A stretch of DNA of 64,000 nt, from assembly GCF_054482525.1 (NCBI RefSeq), contig NZ_JBTHVG010000003.1; one strand, written 5' to 3'. A model generated the notes under the pieces. The model was not told where the DNA came from and made no database searches. It was given only the letters and a program-made list of their open reading frames with translations. This DNA comes from a plasmid. Each line of letters begins with the position of its first letter. Position 1 is the first letter of the stretch. Shown here in pieces: positions 18,963-42,494 of the stretch. Both the position numbers and the translations under genes were made by a program.

Positions 18963-18991
18963 GTCGATCTAACAATTTCACTGGAGCTAAC

Positions 18992-19399
18992 ATGTCCCCG
19001 GAATTGGTATCAGACATTGCAAGAGTGGCGCATGAAAAGCTACTTTCAATTTTAACGGAGTGCGGCATAGAGAAGACGGCAGGCACTTGCCTTTTTGCAA
19101 GCTATCTTGTGTGTTATTTAGCAAAAACTAAAGGTCTAGATGCTGTTGTCCGTGGGGGTAACGGTGCAGATGATGGCGGTATATTTATAGAGTGTGGTGG
19201 CTTTGGCCATTATTGGTGTGAGTTGAATTTCGAAGAAGTGCAATATTATATTGACATCACTTCCGAACAGTTTGGGTTTCATCCATACATAGTGAAACTC
19301 GCCAACGATATAACAGGATGGCCTCGATATATTCCTGGTGATCAGGAAACGGTCGATAGTCATTTAGAACAATTATTACGCGACGGCTATACAGAATAG
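18992..19399 (+). CDS. hypothetical protein
   Basis: 135-aa ORF, contains a conserved-looking Cys/His patch (CGGFGHYWC); no family assigned. Confidence 0.45.
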   Translation: MSPELVSDIARVAHEKLLSILTECGIEKTAGTCLFASYLVCYLAKTKGLDAVVRGGNGADDGGIFIECGGFGHYWCELNFEEVQYYIDITSEQFGFHPYIVKLANDITGWPRYIPGDQETVDSHLEQLLRDGYTE

Positions 19400-19449
19400 G
19401 CTGCGTATACCCTATCGCAGCCTTTCAGGCTCTTAACCCTTGTGACCTG

Positions 19450-19977
19450 TTAACGGAACCACTCAGGATGACGCTGCCGATCAACTTTGATAACCTGCGA
19501 ATTAAATTCAACGACATCCGCTGGAGTAAGCATTAATTCATCAGGATTTACAATAAATGGTCTTAAAACCACTTCGCCACCGTCTTCTTTTGCACCGTAG
19601 ATATTAATAAGAAAGTGCAGTCGTTGATTTCCTTCAGCATTGCGTTGCCATTCTCTAAAAGTCAAAGTTTGTTTAATATAGTTTGTTAAAAGAAATGCGA
19701 ATTCAGATTCTTCCGTTTGTGAGATACCGATTTTGTTAGACATTTTTTTTAGTATCTTTCCGAGCATGGACACACAGGCATCTAGACTTAACGATGTTGA
19801 AATTTTGGTCGTATTAAAATCCTCCTGCGAAAGTGAAATCATCCATGTATTATCTTTATGATAGTCGGTAATATAAATAAAATGAGATGTAAAAGGCGTT
19901 GAGTGATTGAACTCTCCTAAGTTCCATCCATACTGACTCACTGTATTTGAGCTAAGTTCTTTGTCGGTAATGTTCAT
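19450..19977 (-). CDS. hypothetical protein
   Basis: 175-aa ORF convergent with the preceding gene. Confidence 0.45.
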   Translation of the reverse strand: MNITDKELSSNTVSQYGWNLGEFNHSTPFTSHFIYITDYHKDNTWMISLSQEDFNTTKISTSLSLDACVSMLGKILKKMSNKIGISQTEESEFAFLLTNYIKQTLTFREWQRNAEGNQRLHFLINIYGAKEDGGEVVLRPFIVNPDELMLTPADVVEFNSQVIKVDRQRHPEWFR

Positions 19978-20143
19978 AATTCATACCTTTCGATAAAGTC
20001 TGTAATGATAATTAGCTATCTCAAAGGACCAGAACAACTCTTGAAATAACCACACTCGAAGAATTTATCATATTGAACACCCCTACCTAATAACCTTGCC
20101 GACTTAATAAATCACAATAGCCCTCCCCTGACATTTTAAAATG

Positions 20144-20530
20144 CTACTTGAATTTTTGATAGCTTATGGTTGTTTTATGTTCTTTGTGATACGCATATGT
20201 CATCTTCTCTTTCCAGTACCAATCTTGTAGATCCTGCAAGTCTAGCCCATTTTTCTCACGTATGCTTTCGTGTAATTCGCTAAGCGCGAGTTTATCATTA
20301 GGTTTATAAATGGCTAATTTTTCTTCAAATAAATCCAGCCAACGTTTCCCCATCTTACGACGCAAAACAAACACCATCGTGATAAATGTAATGAAATGCA
20401 CAGCAATTAGTTCCAACTTATGCGATTGCTGACCAGATAAAATTACTATTGTAACAACAGGGATGGCCGTATATAAAGCAATCAAAGCGACCATAAGTTG
20501 GTATGGTTTTTCCCGTATTACCATGTTCAT
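20144..20530 (-). CDS. hypothetical membrane protein
   Basis: 128-aa ORF with two hydrophobic helices; last backbone gene before the resistance region. Confidence 0.4.
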   Translation of the reverse strand: MNMVIREKPYQLMVALIALYTAIPVVTIVILSGQQSHKLELIAVHFITFITMVFVLRRKMGKRWLDLFEEKLAIYKPNDKLALSELHESIREKNGLDLQDLQDWYWKEKMTYAYHKEHKTTISYQKFK

Positions 20531-20570
20531 GGGTAAACCAGAGGACGCTACTGCTTGCCAAAATCTTAAA

Positions 20571-20608
20571 GGGGAGCCCGCAGAATTCGGAAAAAATCGT
20601 ACGCTAAG
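20571..20608. repeat. 38-bp terminal inverted repeat of a Tn1721/Tn21-subgroup transposon
   Basis: GGGGAGCCCGCAGAATTCGGAAAAAATCGTACGCTAAG, matching the Tn1721 IR as I recall it; the tnpA stop lies within it. Confidence 0.7.
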
Positions 20609-22120
20609 GTTTTCCGGGCATCCGTAAGGGCCGAAACTTCCCGTCTTCCAGTCTGCGGCTCTGCCGCCAGACGTAATCGCCGGTTAGGTTGATGTGCTCC
20701 CAGCCCAGCGGCGACAGGAATTGCAGCAGCTCGCCGTCCACCGGCTTGCCGGCCTCGACCAACCCCTGGGTGGCGCGTTCCAGGTACACCGTGTTCCACA
20801 GCACGATAGCCGCCGTCACCAGGTTGAGGCCGCTGGCCCGGTAGCGCTGCTGCTCGAAGCTCCGATCCCTGATTTCCCCAAGGCGGTTGAAGAACACCGC
20901 CCTGGCCAGCGAGTTGCGCGCCTCACCTTTGTTCAGGCCGGCATGCACGCGGCGGCGCAGTTCAACACTTTGCAGCCAGTCCAGGATGAACAGCGTGCGC
21001 TCGATCCGGCCCAGCTCGCGCAGGGCCACGGCCAGTCCGTTCTGGCGCGGGTAGCTGCCGAGCTTGCGCAGCATCAGCGAGGCGGTGACGGTGCCCTGCT
21101 TGATCGAGCTGGCCAGGCGCAGGATGTCGTCCCAGTGGGCACGCACGTGCTTGATGTTCAGGGTGCCGCCGATCAGCGGGCGCAACGTCGGGTAGGCTTG
21201 CACGCCCTGCGGCACGTACAGCTTGGTTTCGCCGAGGTCGCGGATGCGCGGCGCGAAGCGGAAGCCTAGCAGGTGCATCAGGGCAAAGACGTGATCGGTG
21301 AAGCCGGCCGTGTCGGTGTAGTGCTCCTCGATCCGCAGGTCGGACTCGTGGTACAGCAGGCCGTCGAGCACATAGGTGGAATCGCGGACGCCGACATTCA
21401 CCACGCGGGTGCTGAACGGCGCGTACTGGTCGGAGATATGGGTATAGAACAGCCGTCCCGGCTCGCTACCGTACTTCGGGTTGACGTGCCCGGTGCTCTC
21501 GCCCCGGCCACCCGCGCGGAAGCGCTGGCCATCGGAGGATGAGGTCGTGCCGTCGCCCCAGTGGGCGGCAAAGGCGTGGCGATACTGGTGGTTGACCAGC
21601 TCGGCCAAGGCCGCCGAATAGGTTTCGTCGCGGATGTGCCAGGCTTGCAGCCAGGACAGCTTGGCGTAGGTCAGGCCGGGGCTCGACTCGGCCATCTTGG
21701 TCAGCCCGAGGTTGATCGCATCACCGAGGATTGCGGACAGCAGCAACGTCCTGTCTTTGGCCTCGGCCCCGTCCTTCAAGTGGGTGAAGTGGCGGCTGAA
21801 GCCCGTCCAGTCGTCCACGTCCATCAGCAGTTCGGTGATCTTGATGCGCGGCAGTAACTGGCTGGTTTGGTCGATCAGCGCCTGCGCCCGATCCGGCACC
21901 GCCGCATCCAGCGGGGTGATTTTCAGCCCTGACTCGGTGAGGATGGCATCGGGCAGCTCGTTGTCCTTGGCCAGGCGGGTGACGGTGGCCAACTGCTCGT
22001 CCAGCAGCTGCAAACGCTCTTCCAGGTACTGGTCGCTGTTCGGGTTGATCGCCAGGGGCAGGGCCTGCTCGCGCTTGAGTGCGGCGAACTTCTCGGCCGG
22101 CAGCAGGTAGTCGTCGAAGT
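20604..22120 (-). pseudogene. tnpA: Tn1721/Tn21-family transposase, 3' fragment truncated by IS26
   Basis: High-GC ORF encoding the C-terminal ~505 aa of a Tn3-family TnpA; reading frame runs into IS26 at 22121. Confidence 0.85.
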
Positions 22121-22940
22121 GGCACTGTTGCAAATAGTCGGTGGTGATAAACTTATCATCCCCTTTTGCTGATGGAGCTGCACATGAACCCATTCAAAGG
22201 CCGGCATTTTCAGCGTGACATCATTCTGTGGGCCGTACGCTGGTACTGCAAATACGGCATCAGTTACCGTGAGCTGCAGGAGATGCTGGCTGAACGCGGA
22301 GTGAATGTCGATCACTCCACGATTTACCGCTGGGTTCAGCGTTATGCGCCTGAAATGGAAAAACGGCTGCGCTGGTACTGGCGTAACCCTTCCGATCTTT
22401 GCCCGTGGCACATGGATGAAACCTACGTGAAGGTCAATGGCCGCTGGGCGTATCTGTACCGGGCCGTCGACAGCCGGGGCCGCACTGTCGATTTTTATCT
22501 CTCCTCCCGTCGTAACAGCAAAGCTGCATACCGGTTTCTGGGTAAAATCCTCAACAACGTGAAGAAGTGGCAGATCCCGCGATTCATCAACACGGATAAA
22601 GCGCCCGCCTATGGTCGCGCGCTTGCTCTGCTCAAACGCGAAGGCCGGTGCCCGTCTGACGTTGAACACCGACAGATTAAGTACCGGAACAACGTGATTG
22701 AATGCGATCATGGCAAACTGAAACGGATAATCGGCGCCACGCTGGGATTTAAATCCATGAAGACGGCTTACGCCACCATCAAAGGTATTGAGGTGATGCG
22801 TGCACTACGCAAAGGCCAGGCCTCAGCATTTTATTATGGTGATCCCCTGGGCGAAATGCGCCTGGTAAGCAGAGTTTTTGAAATGTAAGGCCTTTGAATA
22901 AGACAAAAGGCTGCCTCATCGCTAACTTTGCAACAGTGCC
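22121..22940 (+). mobile_element. tnp26: IS26 copy 1 (canonical Tnp26)
   Basis: 820 bp bounded by GGCACTGTTGCAAA terminal repeats; Tnp26 coding 22184-22888; residue 184 is Gly. Confidence 0.95.
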
Positions 22941-23529
22941 CGCTGTACCAAATGCGGGACAACGTAAGCACTACATTTCGCTCATCGCCGGCCCAGTCGG
23001 GCTGCGAGTTCCATAGCTTCAAGGTTTCCCTCAGCGCCTCGAATAGATCCTGTTCAGGAACCGGGTCAAAGAATTCCTCCGCTGCCGGACCTACCAAGGC
23101 AACGCTATGTTCTCTTGCTTTTGTAAGCAGGATAGCTAGATCAATGTCGATCATGGCTGGCTCGAAGATACCCGCAAGAATGTCATTGCGCTGCCATTCT
23201 CCAAATTGCAGCTCGCGCTTAGCCGGATAACGCCACGGGATGATGTCGTCATGCACGACAAGGGTGACTTCTATAGCGCGGAGCGTCTCGCTCTCGCCAG
23301 GGAAAGCCGAAGCCTCCATAAGATCATTGAGCAATGCTCGCCGCGTCGTTTCATCAAGCTTTACGGCCACAGTAACCAACAAATCAATATCGCTGTATGG
23401 CTTCAGGCCGCCATCCACTGCGGAGCCGTACAAATGCACGGCCAGCAACGTTGATTCCAGATGGCGCTCAATGACGCTTAGCACCTCTGATAGTTGGTTC
23501 GAAATTTCGATGGTCACCGCTTCCCTCAT
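22941..23529 (-). pseudogene. aadA2: aadA2 aminoglycoside adenylyltransferase, 3'-truncated by IS26
   Basis: N-terminal ~196 aa match the AadA2 sequence as recalled (MREAVTIEISNQLSEVLSVIERHLEST...); sequence diverges after RIWYS at the IS26 junction. Confidence 0.85.
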
Positions 23530-23534
23530 GATGT

Positions 23535-23825
23535 CTAACGGGCGAGGTAAGCCGACCGCAGAATGCGGGTCGGCTTGACCGAAATGTTAGAACCAGAAGC
23601 CAAAACGGATAACTTGAATTTGGCGACGGGCGCTAACCGTGAAAAAACGCTGCGCCACCGAGGCGGCACAGCACTGCAAAAACGATAGCTGCTTGCGCTT
23701 GCTACGCAAGGGCTAGAGGCCAAAAAGACTGAAAACCTGCGCAGCCCATGCAGGCGAAGCCCGGAAAAAAGGCAAAACAGGCACTGAATAACGCCTGAAA
23801 AGCTAAATGCCGTTTGAATAAACAT
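23535..23825 (-). CDS. gcuF: gene cassette of unknown function (gcuF/orfF)
   Basis: 96-aa ORF lying between dfrA12 and aadA2 in the classic dfrA12-orfF-aadA2 array; assigned by position. Confidence 0.5.
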   Translation of the reverse strand: MFIQTAFSFSGVIQCLFCLFSGLRLHGLRRFSVFLASSPCVASASSYRFCSAVPPRWRSVFSRLAPVAKFKLSVLASGSNISVKPTRILRSAYLAR

Positions 23826-23936
23826 GAGCTAAATAAAGCTGGGTTTCAGTGGTGCTAACGTTGGACGTAACGAGAGCCGGAGCGCAGCGGAGGGAACCAA
23901 AATGCGCAGCATTTTGGCGTCCCGTTGACGGAATGG

Positions 23937-24434
23937 TTAGCCGTTTCGACGCGCATAAACGGAGTGGGTGTACGGAATTACAGCTTGAATGGTTTCGGTT
24001 GAGACAAGCTCGAATTCTGTTTCGTTGAGCATTGGGAAGAAGGCGTCACCCTCGAAGGTTTGATGTACCTCAGATAGAAACACGCCGTGGGCGTGAGGTA
24101 GTGCCAGAGTGTATATCTCAGCTCCGCCCGCGACGTAGAGTTCATTGCCGAGTTCGGATGCCAAAGCGATAGCGTGCGACAGCGTTGAAACAACTACGCA
24201 GCCAGTGGCGCGGTAGTTAGCTTGGCGTGAGATTACCAATGTGTGACGGTTCGGTAGAGGCTTGCCGATAGACTCAAAGGTCTTTCGCCCCATGACAACG
24301 ACTTTTCCCTCAGTGAGTCTGCGAAAAATCTTCTGCTCACCCGGAATTTTCCAGGGGATATTAGGACCATTGCCAATAACCCGATTGGCTCCCATCGCAG
24401 CAACGAGATAAATGCGTACTGATTCCGAGTTCAT
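23937..24434 (-). CDS. dfrA12: trimethoprim-resistant dihydrofolate reductase DfrA12
   Basis: 165-aa ORF matching the DfrA12 sequence as recalled; first cassette next to attI1. Confidence 0.9.
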   Translation of the reverse strand: MNSESVRIYLVAAMGANRVIGNGPNIPWKIPGEQKIFRRLTEGKVVVMGRKTFESIGKPLPNRHTLVISRQANYRATGCVVVSTLSHAIALASELGNELYVAGGAEIYTLALPHAHGVFLSEVHQTFEGDAFFPMLNETEFELVSTETIQAVIPYTHSVYARRNG

Positions 24435-24578
24435 ATGGCTAACTTTGTTTTAGGGCGACTGCCCTGCTGCGTAACATCGTTGCTGCTCCATAACATCAAA
24501 CATCGACCCACGGCGTAACGCGCTTGCTGCTTGGATGCCCGAGGCATAGACTGTACAAAAAAACAGTCATAACAAGCC
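24435..24578. promoter_or_regulatory. attI1 and cassette promoter region of a class 1 integron
   Basis: Position between the intI1 start and the first cassette; inferred, not motif-checked. Confidence 0.45.
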
Positions 24579-24775
24579 ATGAAAACCGCCACTGCGCCGT
24601 TACCACCGCTGCGTTCGGTCAAGGTTCTGGACCAGTTGCGTGAGCGCATACGCTACTTGCATTACAGTTTACGAACCGAACAGGCTTATGTCAACTGGGT
24701 TCGTGCCTTCATCCGTTTCCACGGTGTGCGTCACCCGGCAACCTTGGGCAGCAGCGAAGTCGAGGCATTTCTGTC
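24579..24775 (+). pseudogene. intI1: class 1 integrase IntI1, N-terminal ~65 codons, truncated by IS26
   Basis: [66 protein letters not shown] then IS26 at 24776. Confidence 0.85.
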
Positions 24776-25595
24776 GGCACTGTTGCAAATAGTCGGTGGT
24801 GATAAACTTATCATCCCCTTTTGCTGATGGAGCTGCACATGAACCCATTCAAAGGCCGGCATTTTCAGCGTGACATCATTCTGTGGGCCGTACGCTGGTA
24901 CTGCAAATACGGCATCAGTTACCGTGAGCTGCAGGAGATGCTGGCTGAACGCGGAGTGAATGTCGATCACTCCACGATTTACCGCTGGGTTCAGCGTTAT
25001 GCGCCTGAAATGGAAAAACGGCTGCGCTGGTACTGGCGTAACCCTTCCGATCTTTGCCCGTGGCACATGGATGAAACCTACGTGAAGGTCAATGGCCGCT
25101 GGGCGTATCTGTACCGGGCCGTCGACAGCCGGGGCCGCACTGTCGATTTTTATCTCTCCTCCCGTCGTAACAGCAAAGCTGCATACCGGTTTCTGGGTAA
25201 AATCCTCAACAACGTGAAGAAGTGGCAGATCCCGCGATTCATCAACACGGATAAAGCGCCCGCCTATGGTCGCGCGCTTGCTCTGCTCAAACGCGAAGGC
25301 CGGTGCCCGTCTGACGTTGAACACCGACAGATTAAGTACCGGAACAACGTGATTGAATGCGATCATGGCAAACTGAAACGGATAATCGGCGCCACGCTGG
25401 GATTTAAATCCATGAAGACGGCTTACGCCACCATCAAAGGTATTGAGGTGATGCGTGCACTACGCAAAGGCCAGGCCTCAGCATTTTATTATGGTGATCC
25501 CCTGGGCGAAATGCGCCTGGTAAGCAGAGTTTTTGAAATGTAAGGCCTTTGAATAAGACAAAAGGCTGCCTCATCGCTAACTTTGCAACAGTGCC
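24776..25595 (+). mobile_element. tnp26: IS26 copy 2 (canonical), left arm of a Tn4352-like unit
   Basis: 820 bp with 14-bp terminal repeats; Tnp26 coding 24839-25543; Gly184. Confidence 0.95.
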
Positions 25596-25732
25596 AATTT
25601 ATGAGTAAAGGATTATGTCCACGATAAGCACCTGGGTCGATTCCTGGGAGGCGGCCATGAGGGTAGGGAAGCGCCGTCCCGTCAAGTCAGCGTAATGCTC
25701 TGCCAGTGTTACAACCAATTAACCAATTCTGA

Positions 25733-26548
25733 TTAGAAAAACTCATCGAGCATCAAATGAAACTGCAATTTATTCATATCAGGATTATCAATACCATATT
25801 TTTGAAAAAGCCGTTTCTGTAATGAAGGAGAAAACTCACCGAGGCAGTTCCATAGGATGGCAAGATCCTGGTATCGGTCTGCGATTCCGACTCGTCCAAC
25901 ATCAATACAACCTATTAATTTCCCCTCGTCAAAAATAAGGTTATCAAGTGAGAAATCACCATGAGTGACGACTGAATCCGGTGAGAATGGCAAAAGCTTA
26001 TGCATTTCTTTCCAGACTTGTTCAACAGGCCAGCCATTACGCTCGTCATCAAAATCACTCGCATCAACCAAACCGTTATTCATTCGTGATTGCGCCTGAG
26101 CGAGACGAAATACGCGATCGCTGTTAAAAGGACAATTACAAACAGGAATCGAATGCAACCGGCGCAGGAACACTGCCAGCGCATCAACAATATTTTCACC
26201 TGAATCAGGATATTCTTCTAATACCTGGAATGCTGTTTTCCCGGGGATCGCAGTGGTGAGTAACCATGCATCATCAGGAGTACGGATAAAATGCTTGATG
26301 GTCGGAAGAGGCATAAATTCCGTCAGCCAGTTTAGTCTGACCATCTCATCTGTAACATCATTGGCAACGCTACCTTTGCCATGTTTCAGAAACAACTCTG
26401 GCGCATCGGGCTTCCCATACAATCGATAGATTGTCGCACCTGATTGCCCGACATTATCGCGAGCCCATTTATACCCATATAAATCAGCATCCATGTTGGA
26501 ATTTAATCGCGGCCTCGAGCAAGACGTTTCCCGTTGAATATGGCTCAT
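25733..26548 (-). CDS. aph(3')-Ia: aminoglycoside 3'-phosphotransferase APH(3')-Ia
   Basis: 271-aa ORF matching the Tn903 kanamycin phosphotransferase sequence as recalled. Confidence 0.95.
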   Translation of the reverse strand: MSHIQRETSCSRPRLNSNMDADLYGYKWARDNVGQSGATIYRLYGKPDAPELFLKHGKGSVANDVTDEMVRLNWLTEFMPLPTIKHFIRTPDDAWLLTTAIPGKTAFQVLEEYPDSGENIVDALAVFLRRLHSIPVCNCPFNSDRVFRLAQAQSRMNNGLVDASDFDDERNGWPVEQVWKEMHKLLPFSPDSVVTHGDFSLDNLIFDEGKLIGCIDVGRVGIADRYQDLAILWNCLGEFSPSLQKRLFQKYGIDNPDMNKLQFHLMLDEFF

Positions 26549-26635
26549 AACACCCCTTGTATTACTGTTTATGTAAGCAGACAGTTTTATTGTTCATGAT
26601 GATATATTTTTATCTTGTGCAATGTAACATCAGAG

Positions 26636-27455
26636 GGCACTGTTGCAAATAGTCGGTGGTGATAAACTTATCATCCCCTTTTGCTGATGGAGCTGCACAT
26701 GAACCCATTCAAAGGCCGGCATTTTCAGCGTGACATCATTCTGTGGGCCGTACGCTGGTACTGCAAATACGGCATCAGTTACCGTGAGCTGCAGGAGATG
26801 CTGGCTGAACGCGGAGTGAATGTCGATCACTCCACGATTTACCGCTGGGTTCAGCGTTATGCGCCTGAAATGGAAAAACGGCTGCGCTGGTACTGGCGTA
26901 ACCCTTCCGATCTTTGCCCGTGGCACATGGATGAAACCTACGTGAAGGTCAATGGCCGCTGGGCGTATCTGTACCGGGCCGTCGACAGCCGGGGCCGCAC
27001 TGTCGATTTTTATCTCTCCTCCCGTCGTAACAGCAAAGCTGCATACCGGTTTCTGGGTAAAATCCTCAACAACGTGAAGAAGTGGCAGATCCCGCGATTC
27101 ATCAACACGGATAAAGCGCCCGCCTATGGTCGCGCGCTTGCTCTGCTCAAACGCGAAGGCCGGTGCCCGTCTGACGTTGAACACCGACAGATTAAGTACC
27201 GGAACAACGTGATTGAATGCGATCATGGCAAACTGAAACGGATAATCGGCGCCACGCTGGGATTTAAATCCATGAAGACGGCTTACGCCACCATCAAAGG
27301 TATTGAGGTGATGCGTGCACTACGCAAAGGCCAGGCCTCAGCATTTTATTATGGTGATCCCCTGGGCGAAATGCGCCTGGTAAGCAGAGTTTTTGAAATG
27401 TAAGGCCTTTGAATAAGACAAAAGGCTGCCTCATCGCTAACTTTGCAACAGTGCC
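26636..27455 (+). mobile_element. tnp26: IS26 copy 3 (canonical), right arm of a Tn4352-like unit
   Basis: 820 bp; Tnp26 coding 26699-27403; Gly184; direct orientation with copy 2, total span 2680 bp. Confidence 0.95.
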
Positions 27456-27664
27456 ATAAGAATATCATCAATAAAATTGAGTGTTGCTCTGTGGATAACT
27501 TGCAGAGTTTATTAAGTATCATTGCAGCAAAGATGAAATCAATGATTTATCAAAAATGATTGAAAGGTGGTTGTAAATAATGTTACAATGTGTGAGAAGC
27601 AGTCTAAATTCTTCGTGAAATAGTGATTTTTGAAGCTAATAAAAAACACACGTGGAATTTAGGG
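27456..27664 (+). mobile_element. ISEcp1 3'-end remnant with right IR, truncated by IS26
   Basis: Ends in ACGTGGAATTTAGGG followed by a ~41-bp spacer before blaCTX-M, the usual ISEcp1 promoter-providing arrangement. Confidence 0.8.
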
Positions 27665-27687
27665 AATACTGATGTAACACGGATTGA

Positions 27688-28581
<894 letters not shown>

Positions 28582-28583
28582 CT

Positions 28584-28932
28584 GGTTTTGTTGAATAAAT
28601 CGAACTTTTGCTGAGTTGAAGGATCAGATCACGTATCTTCCCGACAACGCAGACCGTTCCGTGGCAAAGCAAAAGTTCAAAATCACCAACTGGCCCACCT
28701 ACAATAAAGCCCTCATCAACCGTGGCTCCATAACTTTCTGGCTGGATGATGAAGCTATTCAGGCCTGGTATGAGTCAGCAACACCTTCTTCACGAGGCAG
28801 ACCTCAGCGCTATTCTGACCTTGCCATCACGACTGTGCTGGTCATTAAACGCGTATTCAGGCTGACCCTGCGCGCTGCGCAGGGCTTTATTGATTCCATT
28901 TTTTCTCTGATGAACGTTCCGCTACGCTGCCC
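28584..28932 (+). mobile_element. IS903-like fragment (left IR plus transposase N-terminus)
   Basis: Begins GGTTTTGTTGAATAAATCG; encodes MKDQITYLPDNADRSVAKQKF..., the IS903 transposase N-terminus; breaks off near 28932. Confidence 0.8.
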
Positions 28933-29192
28933 GGTGTAATGTCGGTGCTGATTTGGTCTTCAATAAGGCGATTTTTAGCCCGCTTTTTCCGGGGGGATGA
29001 AATGTTATTGGATTGCTAAATGATTTCAAAAAAGGGGTAACATAGAGCGGGGATTAGTGTGGCGAGGCGCAGGTTTCCGATGGCAGGCTAAACGCAAAAA
29101 ATGCGCTTTTTAGCCGGTGATGAGGTGAGGCCGGGAGGGGATGCGTCGCCGATCACAGTTTACAACAGGGTTTGATAACGGGAGGAAAAGTC

Positions 29193-29609
29193 ATGCTGCA
29201 GGGATTGAATCATCTGACGCTGGCGGTCAGCGATCTGGCGTCAAGCCTGGCATTTTATCAGCAGTTACCTGGAATGCGCCTGCACGCCAGCTGGGATAGC
29301 GGAGCCTATCTCTCCTGTGGGGCGCTGTGGCTGTGCTTGTCGCTGGATGAGCAGCGGCGTAAAACGCCCCCTCAGGAAAGCGACTATACCCACTACGCCT
29401 TCAGCGTGGCGGAAGAAGAGTTTGCCGGGGTGGTGGCTCTGCTGGCGCAGGCGGGGGCTGAGGTATGGAAAGATAACCACAGTGAAGGGGCGTCTTACTA
29501 TTTTCTCGACCCTGACGGCCATAAGCTGGAGCTGCATGTGGGGAATCTGGCGCAGCGGCTGGCCGCCTGTCGCGAACGCCCCTACAAGGGGATGGTCTTT
29601 TTTGATTGA
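29193..29609 (+). CDS. fosA3: fosfomycin-resistance glutathione transferase FosA3
   Basis: Start at internal Met ([15 protein letters not shown]...); 138-aa product matching FosA3 as recalled. Confidence 0.85.
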
Positions 29610-29613
29610 CGGG

Positions 29614-30132
29614 TTAGTTCAGCTTACTGCCGGATTTCAACGTGCAGATCCACAGCGGTGAATTGATAGAGCTGAGCAAGATAGCCTTTTCGTTGAGCTT
29701 CTGAGCGTTGAGAAACAGCCCGTCGTGGCTGTCGGACATCTCGCGCATAAAGTAGTCGAAAATCACGTTCGGCGATTCATCAATCGAGGAGGCGCTCGAT
29801 TCCCACTGATTGATGCGGTAATGACGCTCGGTGGCCGAGATGCGTTTGCTGCTGTAGGTAAACTTCACGTAGCGTTGCAGGTAGAGCCAGCCGGCGGCGG
29901 AGTCGGTGTAACCTTCGACCACCATCGAGCCTTTACCCTGCGCGCCAAAATTGAAGTGAATATTGCCGTTAACGTTCTCTTTGTCCATGTTCTCAAAGCG
30001 CATGATGCCCTTAGTGGAACAGCTCATGACACCCGCGTTGTCGGCAGGCAGCAGCCGCCAGGCGCTAAACGCGGCGGCGGCAATAAATACCAGAACGCAG
30101 AGGGCAAAGAACGGACGCGGCGCGAGTCTCAT
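29614..30132 (-). CDS. hypothetical exported protein linked to fosA3
   Basis: 172-aa ORF with N-terminal signal/TM segment, in the position of orf1 of the fosA3 module. Confidence 0.5.
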   Translation of the reverse strand: MRLAPRPFFALCVLVFIAAAAFSAWRLLPADNAGVMSCSTKGIMRFENMDKENVNGNIHFNFGAQGKGSMVVEGYTDSAAGWLYLQRYVKFTYSSKRISATERHYRINQWESSASSIDESPNVIFDYFMREMSDSHDGLFLNAQKLNEKAILLSSINSPLWICTLKSGSKLN

Positions 30133-30831
30133 TACGGCTTCCAGGAGTAGTAAAAGTAGTTATCGCAATAGCTGAACGGGTTATCTTCATGCATGGCGCA
30201 GTGGGCAAGGAACACGCGCCCCAGCCCGTTGGTTTCGAGCCGATCGCCGTAGAAGAAAAGAAAACGTTCACCGGGTTTACAGGCAATATTCAGCCGCTGG
30301 CGTACCTCATCGAAGTTTTTGCCGTAGGACTCTTCACTGACCGAACGTCGCATTTCATCGCTGGCCAGCAGTTCGCACTGGCTATGGCTGAGGCGGGTCA
30401 GCGCGATAGGCTGGGATTCACTGATGCCGACCAGACTGAAGGCAACCAGAAGCAGGGCAATGGTGAGCAAGCAGGCTCCGGCCATGTACCAGCACATCCC
30501 GCGAGCATGTGCGGAGCGCGGTGCGTCTGGCGTTGTCGTAACGGGCGGCGGTTCGGCAGGCGTCTGTTGTGGTGAAACCGGCGGCGCGTCGTCCAGCGCT
30601 TCGATAATGACCTCGGGATTAAGCTGCAAATAGCCGCGCGAGACGGTGACGATGATGTTATCGACGCCGTAATGGCGAAAGGTCTTCCGCAGCATGCTGA
30701 GATACTGATTCAGATTGCTGTTGGATGAGGTTAATCCATTGTCATCCCAGACTTTTTTCAGAACATCTTCCCGGCTGACAATCTCGGTATGGCGCAGAAA
30801 ATAGTTAAACAGGGCGCTGGCGGTGAGGGAT
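30132..30831 (-). pseudogene. winged-helix regulator gene, 5'-truncated by IS26
   Basis: ORF N-terminus MNKTKGCLIANFATVP is encoded inside IS26 copy 4; the native part has a transmembrane segment and a C-terminal DNA-binding-like region. Confidence 0.5.
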
Positions 30832-31651
30832 GGCACTGTTGCAAAGTTAGCGATGAGGCAGCCTTTTGTCTTATTCAAAGGCCTTACATTTCAAAAACTC
30901 TGCTTACCAGGCGCATTTCGCCCAGGGGATCACCATAATAAAATGCTGAGGCCTGGCCTTTGCGTAGTGCACGCATCACCTCAATACCTTTGATGGTGGC
31001 GTAAGCCGTCTTCATGGATTTAAATCCCAGCGTGGCGCCGATTATCCGTTTCAGTTTGCCATGATCGCATTCAATCACGTTGTTCCGGTACTTAATCTGT
31101 CGGTGTTCAACGTCAGACGGGCACCGGCCTTCGCGTTTGAGCAGAGCAAGCGCGCGACCATAGGCGGGCGCTTTATCCGTGTTGATGAATCGCGGGATCT
31201 GCCACTTCTTCACGTTGTTGAGGATTTTACCCAGAAACCGGTATGCAGCTTTGCTGTTACGACGGGAGGAGAGATAAAAATCGACAGTGCGGCCCCGGCT
31301 GTCGACGGCCCGGTACAGATACGCCCAGCGGCCATTGACCTTCACGTAGGTTTCATCCATGTGCCACGGGCAAAGATCGGAAGGGTTACGCCAGTACCAG
31401 CGCAGCCGTTTTTCCATTTCAGGCGCATAACGCTGAACCCAGCGGTAAATCGTGGAGTGATCGACATTCACTCCGCGTTCAGCCAGCATCTCCTGCAGCT
31501 CACGGTAACTGATGCCGTATTTGCAGTACCAGCGTACGGCCCACAGAATGATGTCACGCTGAAAATGCCGGCCTTTGAATGGGTTCATGTGCAGCTCCAT
31601 CAGCAAAAGGGGATGATAAGTTTATCACCACCGACTATTTGCAACAGTGCC
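30832..31651 (-). mobile_element. tnp26: IS26 copy 4 (canonical)
   Basis: 820 bp; Tnp26 coding 30884-31588 on minus strand; Gly184. Confidence 0.95.
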
Positions 31652-31801
31652 CGTCATACTTTCGCCTTCATGATCTGCAACGAGTTGATCAATAATAAGC
31701 GAAATTCGATAACGAAATTCGATATAAATCTAGAAAAAAATACCTCTATGTGTACTACGCAGTTTTAGCTGTGGCTTTCACAGGAGCACGCTTACTTACG
31801 G

Positions 31802-31839
31802 CTTAGCGTGCTTTATTTTCCGTTTTCTGAGGCGATCCC
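31802..31839. repeat. Tn21-subgroup-like 38-bp terminal inverted repeat
   Basis: Reverse complement reads GGGATCGCCTCAGAAAACGGAAAATAAAGCACGCTAAG, close to the Tn21 IR as recalled; abuts the orf5 break point. Confidence 0.5.
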
Positions 31840-32016
31840 TAGGAGCTCGGATCTCAGGACGAAGGTCTCCGCGAATGTCCGGTCGATCCGCGCGACGTCC
31901 CAGGCGGGCGTTCCCTTGGCGGACATCCACGCCGCAGCGTCGTGCATCAGCCGCACAACCTCGTCGATATCACCCGAGCAGGCGACCCGAACGTTCGGAG
32001 GCTCCTCGCTGTCCAT
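31840..32016 (-). pseudogene. orf5 (GNAT family) of the class 1 integron 3' conserved segment, truncated
   Basis: MDSEEPPNVRVACSGDIDEVVRLMHDAAAWMSAKGTPAWDVARIDRTFAETFVLRSELL then divergence. Confidence 0.7.
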
Positions 32017-32143
32017 TCGCTCCCCTGGCGCGGTATGAACCGCCGCCTCATAGTGCAGTTTGATCCTGACGAGCCCAGCATGTCTGCGCCCACCTTCGCG
32101 GAACCTGACCAGGGTCCGCTAGCGGGCGGCCGGAAGGTGAATG

Positions 32144-32983
32144 CTAGGCATGATCTAACCCTCGGTCTCTGGCGTCGCGACTGCGAAATTTCGCGAGGGT
32201 TTCCGAGAAGGTGATTGCGCTTCGCAGATCTCCAGGCGCGTGGGTGCGGACGTAGTCAGCGCCATTGCCGATCGCGTGAAGTTCCGCCGCAAGGCTCGCT
32301 GGACCCAGATCCTTTACAGGAAGGCCAACGGTGGCGCCCAAGAAGGATTTCCGCGACACCGAGACCAATAGCGGAAGCCCCAACGCCGACTTCAGCTTTT
32401 GAAGGTTCGACAGCACGTGCAGCGATGTTTCCGGTGCGGGGCTCAAGAAAAATCCCATCCCCGGATCGAGGATGAGCCGGTCGGCAGCGACCCCGCTCCG
32501 TCGCAAGGCGGAAACCCGCGCCTCGAAGAACCGCACAATCTCGTCGAGCGCGTCTTCGGGTCGAAGGTGACCGGTGCGGGTGGCGATGCCATCCCGCTGC
32601 GCTGAGTGCATAACCACCAGCCTGCAGTCCGCCTCAGCAATATCGGGATAGAGCGCAGGGTCAGGAAATCCTTGGATATCGTTCAGGTAGCCCACGCCGC
32701 GCTTGAGCGCATAGCGCTGGGTTTCCGGTTGGAAGCTGTCGATTGAAACACGGTGCATCTGATCGGACAGGGCGTCTAAGAGCGGCGCAATACGTCTGAT
32801 CTCATCGGCCGGCGATACAGGCCTCGCGTCCGGATGGCTGGCGGCCGGTCCGACATCCACGACGTCTGATCCGACTCGCAGCATTTCGATCGCCGCGGTG
32901 ACAGCGCCGGCGGGGTCTAGCCGCCGGCTCTCATCGAAGAAGGAGTCCTCGGTGAGATTCAGAATGCCGAACACCGTCACCAT
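32144..32983 (-). CDS. sul1: sulfonamide-resistant dihydropteroate synthase Sul1
   Basis: 279-aa product from internal Met [26 protein letters not shown]..., matching Sul1 as recalled. Confidence 0.95.
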
Positions 32984-33185
32984 GGCGTCGGCCTCCGCAG
33001 CGACTTCCACGATGGGGATCGGGCGAGCAAAAAGGCAGCAATTATGAGCCCCATACCTACAAAGCCCCACGCATCAAGCTTTTGCCCATGAAGCAACCAG
33101 GCAATGGCTGTAATTATGACGACGCCGAGTCCCGACCAGACTGCATAAGCAACACCGACAGGGATGGATTTCAGAACCAGAGAAC
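32977..33185 (-). pseudogene. qacEdelta1: qacEdelta1 efflux gene, additionally 5'-truncated
   Basis: C-terminal ~68 aa match QacEdelta1 ([22 protein letters not shown]...); stop overlaps the sul1 start as usual; N-terminal part replaced. Confidence 0.75.
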
Positions 33186-33189
33186 ATGT

Positions 33190-33327
33190 CATTGTACTGG
33201 AAGGCGCATTACAACTGCGGCTGGGGGATGAGTGGCACACCGTTTCTGCCGGGGAATCCCTGCGCTTCCATGCGGATATCCCGCACGCTTACGCCAATCC
33301 CGGTAAGGCCATTGTGACAGGGGTCTG
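33190..33327 (+). pseudogene. C-terminal fragment of a cupin-domain protein gene
   Basis: Hand translation ...[43 protein letters not shown], with the stop supplied inside the Tn2/Tn3 IR. Confidence 0.4.
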
Positions 33328-33357
33328 ACGCTCAGTGGAACGAAAACTCACGTTAAG
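33320..33357. repeat. Tn2/Tn3 38-bp terminal inverted repeat
   Basis: GGGGTCTGACGCTCAGTGGAACGAAAACTCACGTTAAG. Confidence 0.85.
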
Positions 33358-34655
33358 CAACGTTTTCTGCCTCTGACGCCTCTTTTAATGGTCTCAGATG
33401 TCCTTTGGTCACCAGTTCTGCCAGCGTGAAGGAATAATGGCCGAGCATATTGATATGTCCGTGGCAAAGCGGGGAGAGGCGTGCGATATCTTCATCATTC
33501 AGTGTTTCACCCTGCGCCCGGAGATGATCCAGGGCTGCCTGCATATAAATAGTGTTCCATAACACGACGGCGTTAGTGACCAGCCCCAGTGTGCCCAGTT
33601 GATCTTCCTGACCGTCGGTATATCGTTTTCTTATCTCACCTTTTTGACCGTGACAGATGGCTCTGGCAACGGCATGGCGACTTTCTCCCCGATTAAGCTG
33701 GGTCAGAATGCGCCGGCGGTAATCTTCATCATCAATATAATTAAGCAGATACAGCGTTTTGTTGATGCGCCCCACTTCAATGATTGCCTGAGTCAGTCCG
33801 GAAGGACGTTCACTTTTCAGCAATGAACGGACCAGCACTGAAACCTGTACTTTGCCCAGCTTCAGGGAGCCAGCGGTCCGGATCATTTCGTCCCACTGAA
33901 GGACTATTTTTCGGGGATCTGATTGCCCTCTGGCAATATCATTCAGCACGCCATAGTCGGCATCATGGTCCATTCGCCAGAAAACCGAAGCACCGGCATC
34001 AGCCAGGCGTGGAGAAAACTGGTATCCCAGCAGCCAGAAAAGGCCAAAGACAAGTTCGCTGGCACCTGCTGTATCGGTCATAATTTCGGTTGGATTCAGC
34101 CCGGTCTCCTGTTCCAGAAGACCTTCCAGCACAAAGATAGAGTCCCTCAGCGTCCCCGGTATAACGATGCCATGAAAGCCGGAATACTGATCGGACACAA
34201 AGTTGTACCAGGTGATCCCTCTGTTATTACCAAAGTATTTGCGGTTCGGTCCGGCATTGATTGTTCTGACTGGCGTAACAAAGCGCATTCCATCTGCAGA
34301 TGCCACTTCTCCTCCACCCCATATCTGTGCCAGTGGCAGCGTTGCCTGAAAATCAACCAGTCTGGCATTAGCGCTGGTGATAGTTTCAGCCCGCAGATAG
34401 TTCGCTTTTGTCCAGTTCAGCCGGTGTCGGGTCAGTGCAGGAACATTTGATCTGATCAGTGGTTCCAGACCGATATTGCAGGCTTCAGCCATCAGCACGG
34501 CGCTGATGCTGACGGGCAGATCATCAACTCTGGCACTGGCTTCACTAGCATGGAAAAACTCATCAGCAAATCCGGTATGGGCGTTAATTTCGAGCAGCAA
34601 CTCCGTTAAATCCACCGGAGGGAGTAGATCACTGATCATTTTGCTCAGTCGTTTC
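33353..34655 (-). pseudogene. tnpA: Tn2/Tn3 transposase, 3' fragment truncated by IS26
   Basis: 435-aa ORF with Tn3-type TnpA C-terminal sequence ending at the IR; cut at 34656 by IS26 copy 5. Confidence 0.85.
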
Positions 34656-35475
34656 GGCACTGTTGCAAATAGTCGGTGGTGATAAACTTATCATCCCCTT
34701 TTGCTGATGGAGCTGCACATGAACCCATTCAAAGGCCGGCATTTTCAGCGTGACATCATTCTGTGGGCCGTACGCTGGTACTGCAAATACGGCATCAGTT
34801 ACCGTGAGCTGCAGGAGATGCTGGCTGAACGCGGAGTGAATGTCGATCACTCCACGATTTACCGCTGGGTTCAGCGTTATGCGCCTGAAATGGAAAAACG
34901 GCTGCGCTGGTACTGGCGTAACCCTTCCGATCTTTGCCCGTGGCACATGGATGAAACCTACGTGAAGGTCAATGGCCGCTGGGCGTATCTGTACCGGGCC
35001 GTCGACAGCCGGGGCCGCACTGTCGATTTTTATCTCTCCTCCCGTCGTAACAGCAAAGCTGCATACCGGTTTCTGGGTAAAATCCTCAACAACGTGAAGA
35101 AGTGGCAGATCCCACGATTCATCAACACGGATAAAGCGCCCGCCTATGGTCGCGCGCTTGCTCTGCTCAAACGCGAAGGCCGGTGCCCGTCTGACGTTGA
35201 ACACCGACAGATTAAGTACCGGAACAACGTGATTGAATGCGATCATGGCAAACTGAAACGGATAATCAACGCCACGCTGGGATTTAAATCCATGAAGACG
35301 GCTTACGCCACCATCAAAGGTATTGAGGTGATGCGTGCACTACGCAAAGGCCAGGCCTCAGCATTTTATTATGGTGATCCCCTGGGCGAAATGCGCCTGG
35401 TAAGCAGAGTTTTTGAAATGTAAGGCCTTTGAATAAGACAAAAGGCTGCCTCATCGCTAACTTTGCAACAGTGCC
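34656..35475 (+). mobile_element. tnp26: IS26 copy 5 (Tnp26 G184N variant)
   Basis: 820 bp; Tnp26 coding 34719-35423; RIINATLGF instead of RIIGATLGF, plus one silent change. Confidence 0.95.
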
Positions 35476-35625: not shown

Positions 35626-36003
35626 TTGCCAGTCGGGGATATTAAAAAGAGTATAGGTTTTTATTGCGATAAACTAGGTTTCACTTTGGTTCACCATGAA
35701 GATGGATTCGCAGTTCTAATGTGTAATGAGGTTCGGATTCATCTATGGGAGGCAAGTGATGAAGGCTGGCGCTCTCGTAGTAATGATTCACCGGTTTGTA
35801 CAGGTGCGGAGTCGTTTATTGCTGGTACTGCTAGTTGCCGCATTGAAGTAGAGGGAATTGATGAATTATATCAACATATTAAGCCTTTGGGCATTTTGCA
35901 CCCCAATACATCATTAAAAGATCAGTGGTGGGATGAACGAGACTTTGCAGTAATTGATCCCGACAACAATTTGATTAGCTTTTTTCAACAAATAAAAAGC
36001 TAA
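35626..36003 (+). CDS. bleO: bleomycin-binding protein, BleO-like
   Basis: Low-GC ORF matching the pUB110-type BleO sequence as recalled (PVGDIKKSIGFYCDKLGFTLVHHEDGFAVLMCNEVRIHLWEA...); the track starts it at a TTG, so the true N-terminus is uncertain. Confidence 0.75.
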   Translation: MPVGDIKKSIGFYCDKLGFTLVHHEDGFAVLMCNEVRIHLWEASDEGWRSRSNDSPVCTGAESFIAGTASCRIEVEGIDELYQHIKPLGILHPNTSLKDQWWDERDFAVIDPDNNLISFFQQIKS

Positions 36004-36322: not shown

Positions 36323-36715
36323 TTAATTATCTAATATCTCCGGATCTCCTGTAAAGGAATATAAAACTGCCTGCATGTTTTTCAAATAAAATACGGTGAA
36401 TTTCCCATCATCAGCGCTATACCAATCTCTCAAAAACGGATTTGCTTCAAGCATTGCTTCCCTTGCTTCCACGGTATCATCAATTACGGCTTCGCCGGTG
36501 AGCCGAATCCATTTTCCTTTTGCCATACCTGAGACTTCCACCTTTGAATTTGCCAATAACTGCTGATAAACTTTTTTCTGATTGGTTGTACCAAGATAGA
36601 CCTTGCCATTCCTCTCCATGGCTGCATTAAACGGTCTGACCCTTGGCTGGTCTCCTTCAACGGTTGCAAAATAAAAAGTTTTTGCTTCATTTAAAAAATC
36701 AACAACTTGACTCAT
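36323..36715 (-). CDS. pyridoxamine 5'-phosphate oxidase-like (split-barrel flavin-binding) protein
   Basis: 130-aa low-GC ORF; family assignment from general resemblance, unverified. Confidence 0.5.
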   Translation of the reverse strand: MSQVVDFLNEAKTFYFATVEGDQPRVRPFNAAMERNGKVYLGTTNQKKVYQQLLANSKVEVSGMAKGKWIRLTGEAVIDDTVEAREAMLEANPFLRDWYSADDGKFTVFYLKNMQAVLYSFTGDPEILDN

Positions 36716-36759: not shown

Positions 36760-36997
36760 CCTAAATTCCACGTGCATTTTTTATTAGCTTAAAAGAACAC
36801 TATTTCACGAAGAATTTAAACTGATACTCCCACATTGTAACATTATTTACCACCACCTTTCAATCTTTTTCAATAAATTATTGATTGCAACTTTTGAGTA
36901 AAGATACTTATTAAACCCTGCAAGTTATCCACAGAGCAACACTCGATTTTCAAGATGATATCTTTATTATACCAGACATTTTTCATACACTTCCTTG
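36760..36997 (-). mobile_element. divergent ISEcp1-like (IS1380 family) 3'-end remnant, truncated by IS26
   Basis: Reverse complement aligns at roughly 85% identity with the ISEcp1 remnant at 27456-27664 and ends in ACGTGGAATTTAGG about 45 bp upstream of the 36715 start codon. Confidence 0.6.
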
Positions 36998-39249: not shown

Positions 39250-39272
39250 TCCCTAATCAGAGAATCCAAGAC

Positions 39273-42425: not shown

Positions 42426-42440
42426 CCTGCAGCAGATAAC

Positions 42441-42478: not shown

Positions 42479-42494
42479 CGTCACCAGAAAATGA

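What the first reader, a model, noticed from the sequence alone, without database searches (positions are those of the whole stretch)
24776..30831. Tn4352-like aph(3')-Ia unit next to an ISEcp1-blaCTX-M-IS903-fosA3 module
Two directly oriented IS26 copies span exactly 2680 bp around aph(3')-Ia, and the next IS26-bounded segment carries blaCTX-M with its ISEcp1 promoter remnant, an IS903 fragment and fosA3. These are well-known resistance units and are reported for completeness rather than novelty.
Basis: established knowledge. Interest (0 to 1): 0.3.

Follow-up and report, generated by a model that had tools for sequence, protein, structure and literature searches.

The report
Known IS26 resistance array, rare fosA3 allele
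This stretch is an ordinary, already published plasmid antibiotic-resistance cluster (kanamycin, cephalosporin and fosfomycin genes stitched together by copies of the insertion sequence IS26); its only unusual points are one rare amino-acid change in the fosfomycin gene and an inversion relative to its closest relative.

Summary
Two identical, directly oriented 820-bp IS26 copies (24776-25595, 26636-27455) enclose a 1,040-bp segment with aph(3')-Ia. The total is 2,680 bp, which is Tn4352, the stable form and not Tn4352B. The right-hand IS26 is shared with a 3,376-bp module (27456-30831): a 208-bp ISEcp1 end with its promoter, a 42-bp spacer, blaCTX-M-14, 353 bp of IS903B, fosA3, orf1 and truncated orf2. 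The module ends at an inverted IS26 (30832-31651). The spacings (611 bp and 1,222 bp) match the published "type V/type D" blaCTX-M-14-fosA3 context of IncHI2 plasmids.

The whole 6,876 bp equals E. coli plasmid pXDL-CTX-M-14 except for one base. Window 29479 is A instead of G, which changes FosA3 Arg96 to His. This allele is rare: 0 of 679 fosA3 plasmids and 0 of 262 fosA3-positive complete E. coli genomes carry it. It is real, because the exact protein is WP_247785953.1 and also occurs in a second, different IS26 context. It falls at a position that is Arg or Lys in 127 of 128 homologues, so its effect on resistance is unknown.

Relative to pXDL-CTX-M-14, the 9.5-kb segment between inverted IS26 copies is flipped.

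Verdict: already known, low interest.

The parts
24776..25595 (+). IS26, left copy of the Tn4352 unit. It truncates intI1 (IntI1 N-terminus ORF 24579-24827).
   Evidence: 820 bp with terminal repeats GGCACTGTTGCAAA / TTTGCAACAGTGCC, identical to the copies at 22121, 26636 and 30832. The transposase matches the IS6 family model NF033587 at 275.6 bits.
25596..26635 (.). 1,040-bp central segment of Tn4352
   Evidence: The length equals the 1,040-bp aphA1a fragment of the Tn4352 translocatable unit (PMC4894685). A single G at 26635 precedes the IS26 GG, giving a run of three Gs. That is Tn4352, not Tn4352B, which has five Gs (PMC4676283).
25733..26548 (-). aph(3')-Ia (aphA1a), kanamycin/neomycin phosphotransferase, 271 aa
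   Evidence: NF051474 APH(3')-Ia at 649.9 bits, cut-off 625. The DNA is identical to pXDL-CTX-M-14, where AMRFinderPlus gives 100%.
26599..26628 (-). promoter-like site upstream of aph(3')-Ia, abutting the IS26 left end
   Evidence: GTTACA-18-TATCAT, 9 of 12 matches. This is a consensus match only. The position fits the aphA1a promoter drawn in Fig. 2C of PMC4676283.
26636..27455 (+). IS26 shared between the Tn4352 unit and the CTX-M-14/fosA3 module
27456..27663 (+). 208-bp right-end remnant of ISEcp1, cut by IS26. It includes the outward promoter (27560-27589) and the right inverted repeat (27650-27663).
   Evidence: 100% identical to sequence annotated as ISEcp1 in many E. coli genomes, and matches in other contexts stop exactly at 27663. 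TTGAAA-18-TACAAT, 10 of 12 with an upstream TG, is the best promoter-like site in 25500-30900.
27664..27705 (+). 42-bp spacer between the ISEcp1 right inverted repeat and the blaCTX-M-14 start codon
   Evidence: Read directly from the sequence. From my own knowledge, 42 bp is the usual spacer for the CTX-M-9 group.
27706..28581 (+). blaCTX-M-14, extended-spectrum beta-lactamase, 291 aa
   Evidence: NF033089 CTX-M family at 620.7 bits, cut-off 570. The DNA is identical to the pXDL-CTX-M-14 gene called CTX-M-14 at 100%.
28582..28934 (+). 353-bp left-end fragment of IS903B/IS903D, encoding the transposase N-terminus
   Evidence: Megablast matches to annotated IS903B copies cover query positions 1-353 at 99-100% and then stop. 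The IS5 family model matches positions 1-82 of 289.
28935..29192 (+). 258-bp native upstream region of fosA3
   Evidence: Shared with the independent fosA3 contig L002 from 28935 onward.
29193..29609 (+). fosA3 variant, 138 aa. G to A at 29479 changes codon CGC to CAC, giving Arg96His.
   Evidence: 137/138 identical to PDB 5VB0 FosA3, with the only difference at residue 96. This is also the only mismatch to pXDL-CTX-M-14 across 6,876 bp. The exact protein is WP_247785953.1.
29614..30132 (-). orf1, FidL-like protein, 172 aa
   Evidence: Annotated as a FidL-like protein in pXDL-CTX-M-14 and matches PF15941 in L002.
30132..30831 (-). orf2 (winged-helix regulator), 5'-truncated by IS26. The fosA3 stop codon is 1,222 bp from IS26.
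   Evidence: The ORF runs into IS26. Weak matches to the CadC/PhoB DNA-binding domain. The full 262-aa form is in L002. The 1,222-bp spacing is.
30832..31651 (-). IS26 closing the module, inverted relative to the copies at 24776 and 26636, with its right end facing inward
22121..22940 (+). IS26 that, together with the inverted copy at 30832, bounds the 9,531-bp block shared with pXDL-CTX-M-14
22941..24775 (-). Class 1 integron fragment between two IS26 copies: truncated aadA gene, gcuF (DUF1010), dfrA12, attI side and truncated intI1
   Evidence: ORFs. dfrA12 (100%) and the DUF1010 protein are annotated in the identical pXDL-CTX-M-14 stretch. The names aadA2 and gcuF come from my own knowledge.

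Best explanation
This is part of an IS26-built multiresistance array on an IncHI2-type plasmid closely related to E. coli pXDL-CTX-M-14.

Unit 1 is Tn4352, a pseudo-compound transposon: IS26, a 1,040-bp aph(3')-Ia segment, then IS26 in direct orientation. Its kinase phosphorylates kanamycin and neomycin and is expressed from its own promoter next to the IS26 left end.

Unit 2 shares the right-hand IS26 and is the published blaCTX-M-14-fosA3 module.
- The ISEcp1 remnant supplies the promoter that drives blaCTX-M-14 (cephalosporin hydrolysis).
- An IS903B stub joins it to a fosA3-orf1-orf2 segment.
- The FosA3 enzyme inactivates fosfomycin by Mn2+/K+-dependent addition of glutathione.
- The module ends at an inverted IS26.

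The units were assembled and are rearranged by IS26. This happens either by insertion of a translocatable unit next to an existing IS26 or by homologous recombination between IS26 copies. It did not happen by classical transposition, because no 8-bp target duplications flank any unit.

What is shown: the anatomy, the alleles, the identity to published contexts, and the inversion relative to pXDL-CTX-M-14.

What is inferred: expression from the named promoters, the resistance phenotypes, and the route of assembly. The fosA3 copy here carries Arg96His. I assume it still confers some fosfomycin resistance, but this is untested.
For: - Seven IS26 copies are mapped. The four in and around the finding are identical.
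- The 2,680-bp unit has a 1,040-bp centre and a run of three Gs at the IS26 left end, matching Tn4352 as described in PMC4894685 and PMC4676283.
- Gene identities come from NCBIfam and from base identity to annotated pXDL-CTX-M-14.
- The ISEcp1 end and its exact boundary are confirmed, as is its promoter.
- The IS903B fragment boundary is confirmed.
- The spacings of 611 bp and 1,222 bp equal those reported for IncHI2 plasmids (PMC4267423). The gene order equals type D in PMC10352792.
- 169 PLSDB plasmids hold at least 80% of the query in one place. These top hits are mostly large plasmids of 130-290 kb; the two checked for typing (pXDL-CTX-M-14 and ps11011-CTX) are IncHI2A.
- No matching 8-bp flanks occur at any IS26.
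- Identity to pXDL-CTX-M-14 stops exactly at the outer IS26 ends, and the flanks are swapped.
Against: - Nothing contradicts the structural reading.
- Phenotypes were not measured.
- The fosA3 allele differs from the reference at a position that is Arg or Lys in 127 of 128 homologues, so the fosfomycin phenotype may be weaker than the gene name implies.
- One paper gives Tn4352 as 2,681 bp (PMC4676283), against 2,680 bp here. The same group gives the centre as 1,040 bp (PMC4894685), which yields 2,680 bp, so I treat the extra base as a counting difference.
Confidence: 0.95

Rival explanations
1. The aph(3')-Ia unit arrived as a discrete compound transposon that transposed into this site as one piece.
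For: It has the exact dimensions of Tn4352.
Against: - The outer 8-bp flanks differ (TTTCTGTC versus ATAAGAAT).
- The left IS26 interrupts intI1 and the right IS26 interrupts ISEcp1. These are unrelated sequences, so there is no single target site.
- IS26-bounded units are known to move as a single IS26 plus the adjacent segment, inserting next to an existing IS26 without creating a duplication (PMC4196232, PMC4894685).
Confidence: 0.03
2. The fosA3 base change at 29479 is a sequencing or assembly error, and the gene is really the reference allele.
For: - It is a single base.
- The allele is absent from 679 fosA3-carrying PLSDB plasmids and from the 262 complete E. coli genomes that carry fosA3.
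Against: - The exact 138-aa protein is on record at NCBI (WP_247785953.1, with two GenBank entries) on two contigs.
- One of these, a 2,473-bp contig of GCA_023098405.1, carries the same A in a different IS26 context: 322 bp upstream and 1,619 bp downstream.
- The site is not in a homopolymer.
Confidence: 0.08
3. The CTX-M-14/fosA3 segment is a self-contained IS26 pseudo-compound transposon that can excise as a translocatable unit using its two bounding IS26 copies.
For: It is bounded on both sides by intact, identical IS26 copies.
Against: - The two bounding copies are inverted, with both right ends facing inward.
- Recombination between inverted copies inverts the segment rather than excising it. 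That outcome is exactly what the comparison with pXDL-CTX-M-14 shows for the larger block between the copies at 22121 and 30832.
- The next IS26 in direct orientation is at 34656, so any excisable unit would be larger.
Confidence: 0.05

Closest known systems
Tn4352 (IS26-aphA1a-IS26; Wrighton and Strike 1987; Harmer and Hall, PMC4676283 and PMC4894685)
   Same: Two directly oriented 820-bp IS26 copies. A 1,040-bp centre carrying aph(3')-Ia transcribed opposite to tnp26. [quoted passage not shown]
   Different: There is no 8-bp target-site duplication. It sits inside an IS26 array, between truncated intI1 and truncated ISEcp1, and shares its right IS26 with the next module.
Type D / type V fosA3 context: IS26-delta-ISEcp1-blaCTX-M-14-delta-IS903D-fosA3-orf1-delta-orf2-IS26 (PMC10352792, PMC4267423)
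   Same: The gene order matches. So do the 42-bp ISEcp1-bla spacer, the 611 bp from bla to fosA3, and the 1,222 bp from fosA3 to IS26. The association with IncHI2 plasmids also matches.
   Different: fosA3 carries Arg96His.
Plasmid pXDL-CTX-M-14 (NZ_CP043034.1, E. coli, human blood, Hangzhou; IncHI2A)
   Same: Window 22121-31651 (9,531 bp, from the IS26 at 22121 to the IS26 at 30832) is identical apart from one base. The outer flanks are also 100% identical.
   Different: The block between the inverted IS26 copies is in the opposite orientation relative to its flanks. pXDL-CTX-M-14 has the reference fosA3 allele.
FosA3 reference protein (WP_014839980.1; PDB 5VB0)
   Same: 137 of 138 residues are identical. 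Because residue 96 is the only difference, all residues listed for Mn2+, K+ and fosfomycin binding (PMC5574708) are unchanged.
   Different: Residue 96 is His instead of Arg. This is the first residue of the K+-binding loop (PMC12888890) and is Arg or Lys in 127 of 128 homologues.

Membership tests
Tn4352 | Two IS26 copies in direct orientation | tested here: met
   24776-25595 (+) and 26636-27455 (+), both 820 bp and identical.
Tn4352 | 1,040-bp central segment carrying aphA1a / aph(3')-Ia | tested here: met
   25596-26635 is 1,040 bp (PMC4894685). The APH(3')-Ia model scores 649.9 bits against a cut-off of 625. The allele is 100% by base identity with pXDL-CTX-M-14.
Tn4352 | [quoted passage not shown] | tested here: met
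   The sequence ...CAGAG|GGCACTG has a run of three Gs. Tn4352B would have five (PMC4676283).
Tn4352 | An 8-bp target-site duplication flanking the whole unit, the signature of insertion as one piece | tested here: not met
   The flanks are TTTCTGTC and ATAAGAAT. Duplications are not expected when the unit is built next to an existing IS26 (PMC4196232), so this bears on how it arrived, not on what it is.
blaCTX-M-14-fosA3 IS26 module (type D / type V) | Truncated ISEcp1 with its promoter upstream of blaCTX-M-14 | tested here: met
   A 208-bp ISEcp1 right end at 100% identity with an exact boundary. Promoter TTGAAA-18-TACAAT. 42-bp spacer.
blaCTX-M-14-fosA3 IS26 module (type D / type V) | The blaCTX-M-14 allele | tested here: met
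   The DNA is identical to the gene called CTX-M-14 at 100% in NZ_CP043034.1. CTX-M family model at 620.7 bits.
blaCTX-M-14-fosA3 IS26 module (type D / type V) | A truncated IS903 between bla and fosA3, with 611 bp from bla to fosA3 | tested here: met
   353 bp of IS903B at 28582-28934. 611-bp spacing (PMC4267423).
blaCTX-M-14-fosA3 IS26 module (type D / type V) | orf1 and truncated orf2 downstream, with IS26 1,222 bp after fosA3 | tested here: met
   1,222-bp spacing. Gene annotations. Published spacing in PMC4267423 and PMC10352792.
FosA3 (reference allele) | Full-length identity to the reference FosA3 protein | tested here: not met
   137/138 identical, with Arg96His. NCBI names the exact protein only at the level of the FosA3/FosA4 family.
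FosA3/FosA4 family glutathione transferase | Score above the curated NCBIfam cut-off, and the Mn2+/K+/fosfomycin-binding residues retained | tested here: met
   NF000075 at 322.5 bits, cut-off 275. The only difference from 5VB0 is residue 96, which is not among the ligand residues listed in PMC5574708.
FosA3/FosA4 family glutathione transferase | Confers fosfomycin resistance (glutathione-dependent inactivation) | not testable with these tools
   This needs an MIC or enzyme assay of the Arg96His protein.
IS26 | 820 bp, 14-bp terminal inverted repeats, and an IS6-family DDE transposase | tested here: met

The most novel reading that the evidence does not exclude
FosA3-Arg96His is a functionally altered allele, not a neutral one. 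Replacing the conserved basic residue at the start of the K+-binding loop could weaken glutathione binding or K+ activation. From my memory of Rigsby et al. 2007, which I could not retrieve, this residue is modelled as a glutathione contact. If so, isolates that gene-callers score as "fosA3" would have a lower fosfomycin MIC than predicted. The presence of the same change in two different IS26 contexts would then point to either recurrent mutation or exchange between fosA3 copies.
Probability: 0.3. Interest if true: 0.3.

Novelty: already known. Interest (0 to 1): 0.1.

Why it matters
The region co-locates resistance to aminoglycosides, third-generation cephalosporins and fosfomycin on one conjugative plasmid type, so use of any one of these drugs selects for all three resistances. 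This is well documented for IncHI2 plasmids from China and adds nothing new.

Two points have minor practical value:
- The fosA3 copy is a rare Arg96His variant, so the fosfomycin phenotype should not simply be read off the gene name.
- Comparison with pXDL-CTX-M-14 gives a clean natural example of a 9.5-kb inversion between inverted IS26 copies. This is a reminder that the order and orientation of such arrays are unstable and easily mis-assembled.

Tried and rejected
- I tried to read Klontz et al. 2017 (PMC5655077) and Rigsby et al. 2007 (PMC2709490) for direct data on FosA3 Arg96 / PA1129 Arg93. Neither is held. The claim that this residue contacts glutathione therefore rests on my memory only.
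- A paper search for fosA3 with R96H / Arg96His found nothing relevant. PMC10779102 does not mention the residue.
- I tried to fetch pRMH760 (KF976462, Tn4352B) for a direct alignment. It is not in the collections, so Tn4352 was separated from Tn4352B using the published description of the G run.
- I looked for 8-bp target duplications, direct or reverse-complement, among all 14 IS26 flanks. There are none. This rules out recent simple transposition and an intramolecular replicative-inversion signature.
- I considered whether the window comes from pXDL-CTX-M-14 itself. I rejected this because of the SNP and the inversion. The source is probably the 230,346-bp contig that carries WP_247785953.1, which is in neither PLSDB nor the complete E. 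coli set.
- I first took L002 for the classic 1,758-bp type A context. Measurement gave 322 bp upstream and 1,619 bp downstream, so it is a different variant.


Full report
**Observation**

The window holds seven IS26 copies of exactly 820 bp, at 22121 (+), 24776 (+), 26636 (+), 30832 (-), 34656 (+), 36998 (-) and 43024 (-). The copies at 24776-25595 and 26636-27455 are identical and in direct orientation, with starts 1860 bp apart. Between them lie 1,040 bp (25596-26635) carrying aph(3')-Ia on the minus strand (25733-26548).

**The aph unit**

- The 1,040-bp centre equals the aphA1a fragment of the Tn4352 translocatable unit (PMC4894685).
- The sequence at the IS26 left end upstream of aphA1a is ...CAGAG|GGCACTG, a run of three Gs. 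Harmer and Hall showed that the unstable variant Tn4352B has five Gs here and that Tn4352 has three (PMC4676283). This copy is therefore the stable Tn4352 form.
- That paper quotes 2,681 bp for Tn4352. With 820-bp IS26 copies and the 1,040-bp centre given by the same group, the sum is 2,680 bp, so I treat this as a counting difference.
- The APH(3')-Ia model scores 649.9 bits against a cut-off of 625.
- The DNA is identical to the gene called at 100% in pXDL-CTX-M-14.
- A promoter-like site (GTTACA-18-TATCAT) sits at 26628-26599 on the minus strand, next to IS26.
- The outer 8-bp flanks differ (TTTCTGTC and ATAAGAAT). The left IS26 cuts intI1 and the right one cuts ISEcp1. The unit was therefore not inserted as one piece. 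It was built or moved within an IS26 array, as described for IS26 translocatable units (PMC4196232, PMC4894685).

**The CTX-M-14/fosA3 module (27456-30831, 3,376 bp)**

- 27456-27663 is the last 208 bp of ISEcp1. It is 100% identical to annotated ISEcp1 copies, and matches in unrelated contexts stop exactly at 27663.
- It contains the best promoter-like site of the region: TTGAAA-18-TACAAT with an upstream TG, at 27560-27589.
- A 42-bp spacer leads to blaCTX-M-14 (27706-28581), identified by the CTX-M family model at 620.7 bits and by identity to the CTX-M-14 gene of pXDL-CTX-M-14.
- Directly after the stop codon come 353 bp of IS903B (28582-28934). Matches to annotated IS903B stop at that point, and the fragment encodes the N-terminus of an IS5-family transposase.
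- From 28935 the sequence is the fosA3 segment: 258 bp of upstream region, fosA3 (29193-29609), orf1 (FidL-like, 29614-30132, minus strand), and orf2 (winged-helix regulator, minus strand) cut at 30831 by IS26.
- The spacings are 611 bp from bla to fosA3 and 1,222 bp from fosA3 to IS26.
- Yang et al. reported exactly these figures for blaCTX-M-14-fosA3-IS26 on IncHI2 plasmids (PMC4267423).
- The gene order is "type D" in the review PMC10352792.
- At least 169 PLSDB plasmids hold 80% or more of the 6.9-kb query in one place.

**Closest relative and the inversion**

Across 24776-31651 the window differs from E. coli plasmid pXDL-CTX-M-14 (NZ_CP043034.1; IncHI2A, human blood, Hangzhou) by one base.

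- The identity extends over 22121-31651 (9,531 bp). This block also includes a class 1 integron fragment: a truncated aadA gene, a DUF1010 cassette, dfrA12 and truncated intI1.
- Identity breaks exactly at the outer ends of the two IS26 copies.
- The flanks are present in the window but exchanged and reversed. The sul1 side of pXDL-CTX-M-14 matches window 32996 down to 30832. The other side matches 22940 down to 18121. Both are 100% identical.
- The block between the inverted IS26 copies at 22121 and 30832 is therefore inverted relative to pXDL-CTX-M-14. This is the expected product of recombination between inverted IS26 copies.
- No 8-bp signature of a replicative inversion is present.

**The fosA3 allele**

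The single mismatch is window 29479, A instead of G. It changes codon 96 from CGC (Arg) to CAC (His).

- Frequency test: I used a 41-mer centred on the base, so that megablast's 28-base word must include it. The A allele is in 0 PLSDB plasmids and 0 complete E. coli genomes. The G allele is in 679 plasmids and in 262 of 5,426 genomes.
- Why it is not an error: the exact protein is on record as WP_247785953.1, named only as a FosA3/FosA4 family protein, on two contigs. One is a 2,473-bp contig of GCA_023098405.1 that carries the same A in a different setting, with IS26 322 bp upstream and 1,619 bp downstream.
- Conservation: position 96 is Arg (72) or Lys (55) in 127 of 128 non-self homologues of 67-96% identity. 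It is Arg or Lys in the five solved FosA sequences whose alignments were printed.
- Structural role: it is the first residue of the K+-binding loop (PMC12888890). It is not among the residues listed as ligands of Mn2+, K+ or fosfomycin (PMC5574708).
- From memory, Rigsby et al. 2007 modelled the equivalent Arg93 of the Pseudomonas enzyme as a glutathione contact. I could not retrieve that paper.
- Conclusion: the effect on resistance is open. The gene is still fosA3 by family criteria (322.5 bits, cut-off 275), but it is not the reference allele.

**Mechanism**

- Shown: the anatomy, the alleles, the boundaries and the relation to published structures.
- Inferred from established knowledge:
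  - APH(3')-Ia phosphorylates kanamycin and neomycin.
  - CTX-M-14 hydrolyses oxyimino-cephalosporins and is transcribed from the ISEcp1 promoter.
  - FosA3 adds glutathione to fosfomycin.
  - IS26 moves and reshuffles the units, by Tnp26-mediated insertion next to another IS26 or by homologous recombination.
- The CTX-M-14/fosA3 module is bounded by inverted IS26 copies, so those two copies cannot excise it as a circle. The Tn4352 unit is bounded by direct copies, but it is the form that excises only rarely (PMC4676283).

**Novelty and verdict**

Interest is 0.1.

Noticed in passing
window 18121-32996, block 22121-31651: The 9,531-bp block bounded by the inverted IS26 copies at 22121 (+) and 30832 (-) is inverted relative to its flanks when compared with pXDL-CTX-M-14. 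Both flanks are 100% identical but swapped and reversed.
   Followed up: yes
window 34656-35475, 36998-37817, 43024-43843: These three IS26 copies differ from the other four by G459A and GG613-614AA. The second change gives Tnp26 Gly184Asn (KRIINATLGF instead of KRIIGATLGF). From memory this is the described IS26 variant with enhanced activity. The array therefore mixes two IS26 types, and the variant copies bound the bleO and oqxAB segments.
   Followed up: partly
window 36760-36967 (minus orientation), with 36323-36715 and 35626-36003: This is an 86%-identical inverted copy of the 208-bp ISEcp1 right-end remnant. It lies just upstream of a pyridoxamine-5'-phosphate-oxidase-family gene (130 aa, minus strand) and next to bleO, between two IS26 copies. 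It looks like the end of a different IS1380-family element placed where it could supply a promoter to that gene.
   Followed up: partly
L002 (GCA_023098405.1 contig JALMGU010000266.1), 1-2473: The same rare fosA3 Arg96His allele occurs in a different IS26 context: 322 bp upstream, 1,619 bp downstream, with full-length orf2 and part of a TetR-like orf3. Either the mutation recurred or it was exchanged between fosA3 copies.
   Followed up: partly
window 31652-34655: A detached 3'-conserved-segment piece (orf5 fragment, sul1, qacE-delta-1, all on the minus strand) is followed by the C-terminal 435 aa of a Tn3-family transposase cut by IS26 at 34656. It is separated by the resistance modules from the integron 5' part (22941-24775).
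   Followed up: no
window 37818-43023: The IS26-bounded oqxAB efflux-pump segment with an Rrf2-family regulator lies downstream in the same array, judging from annotation of matching plasmids.
   Followed up: no
window 2559-2728 and 21220-21389: A 170-nt direct repeat at 76% identity. The second copy lies inside the Tn3-family transposase fragment at 20604-22193, so this probably reflects two related transposase genes.
   Followed up: no
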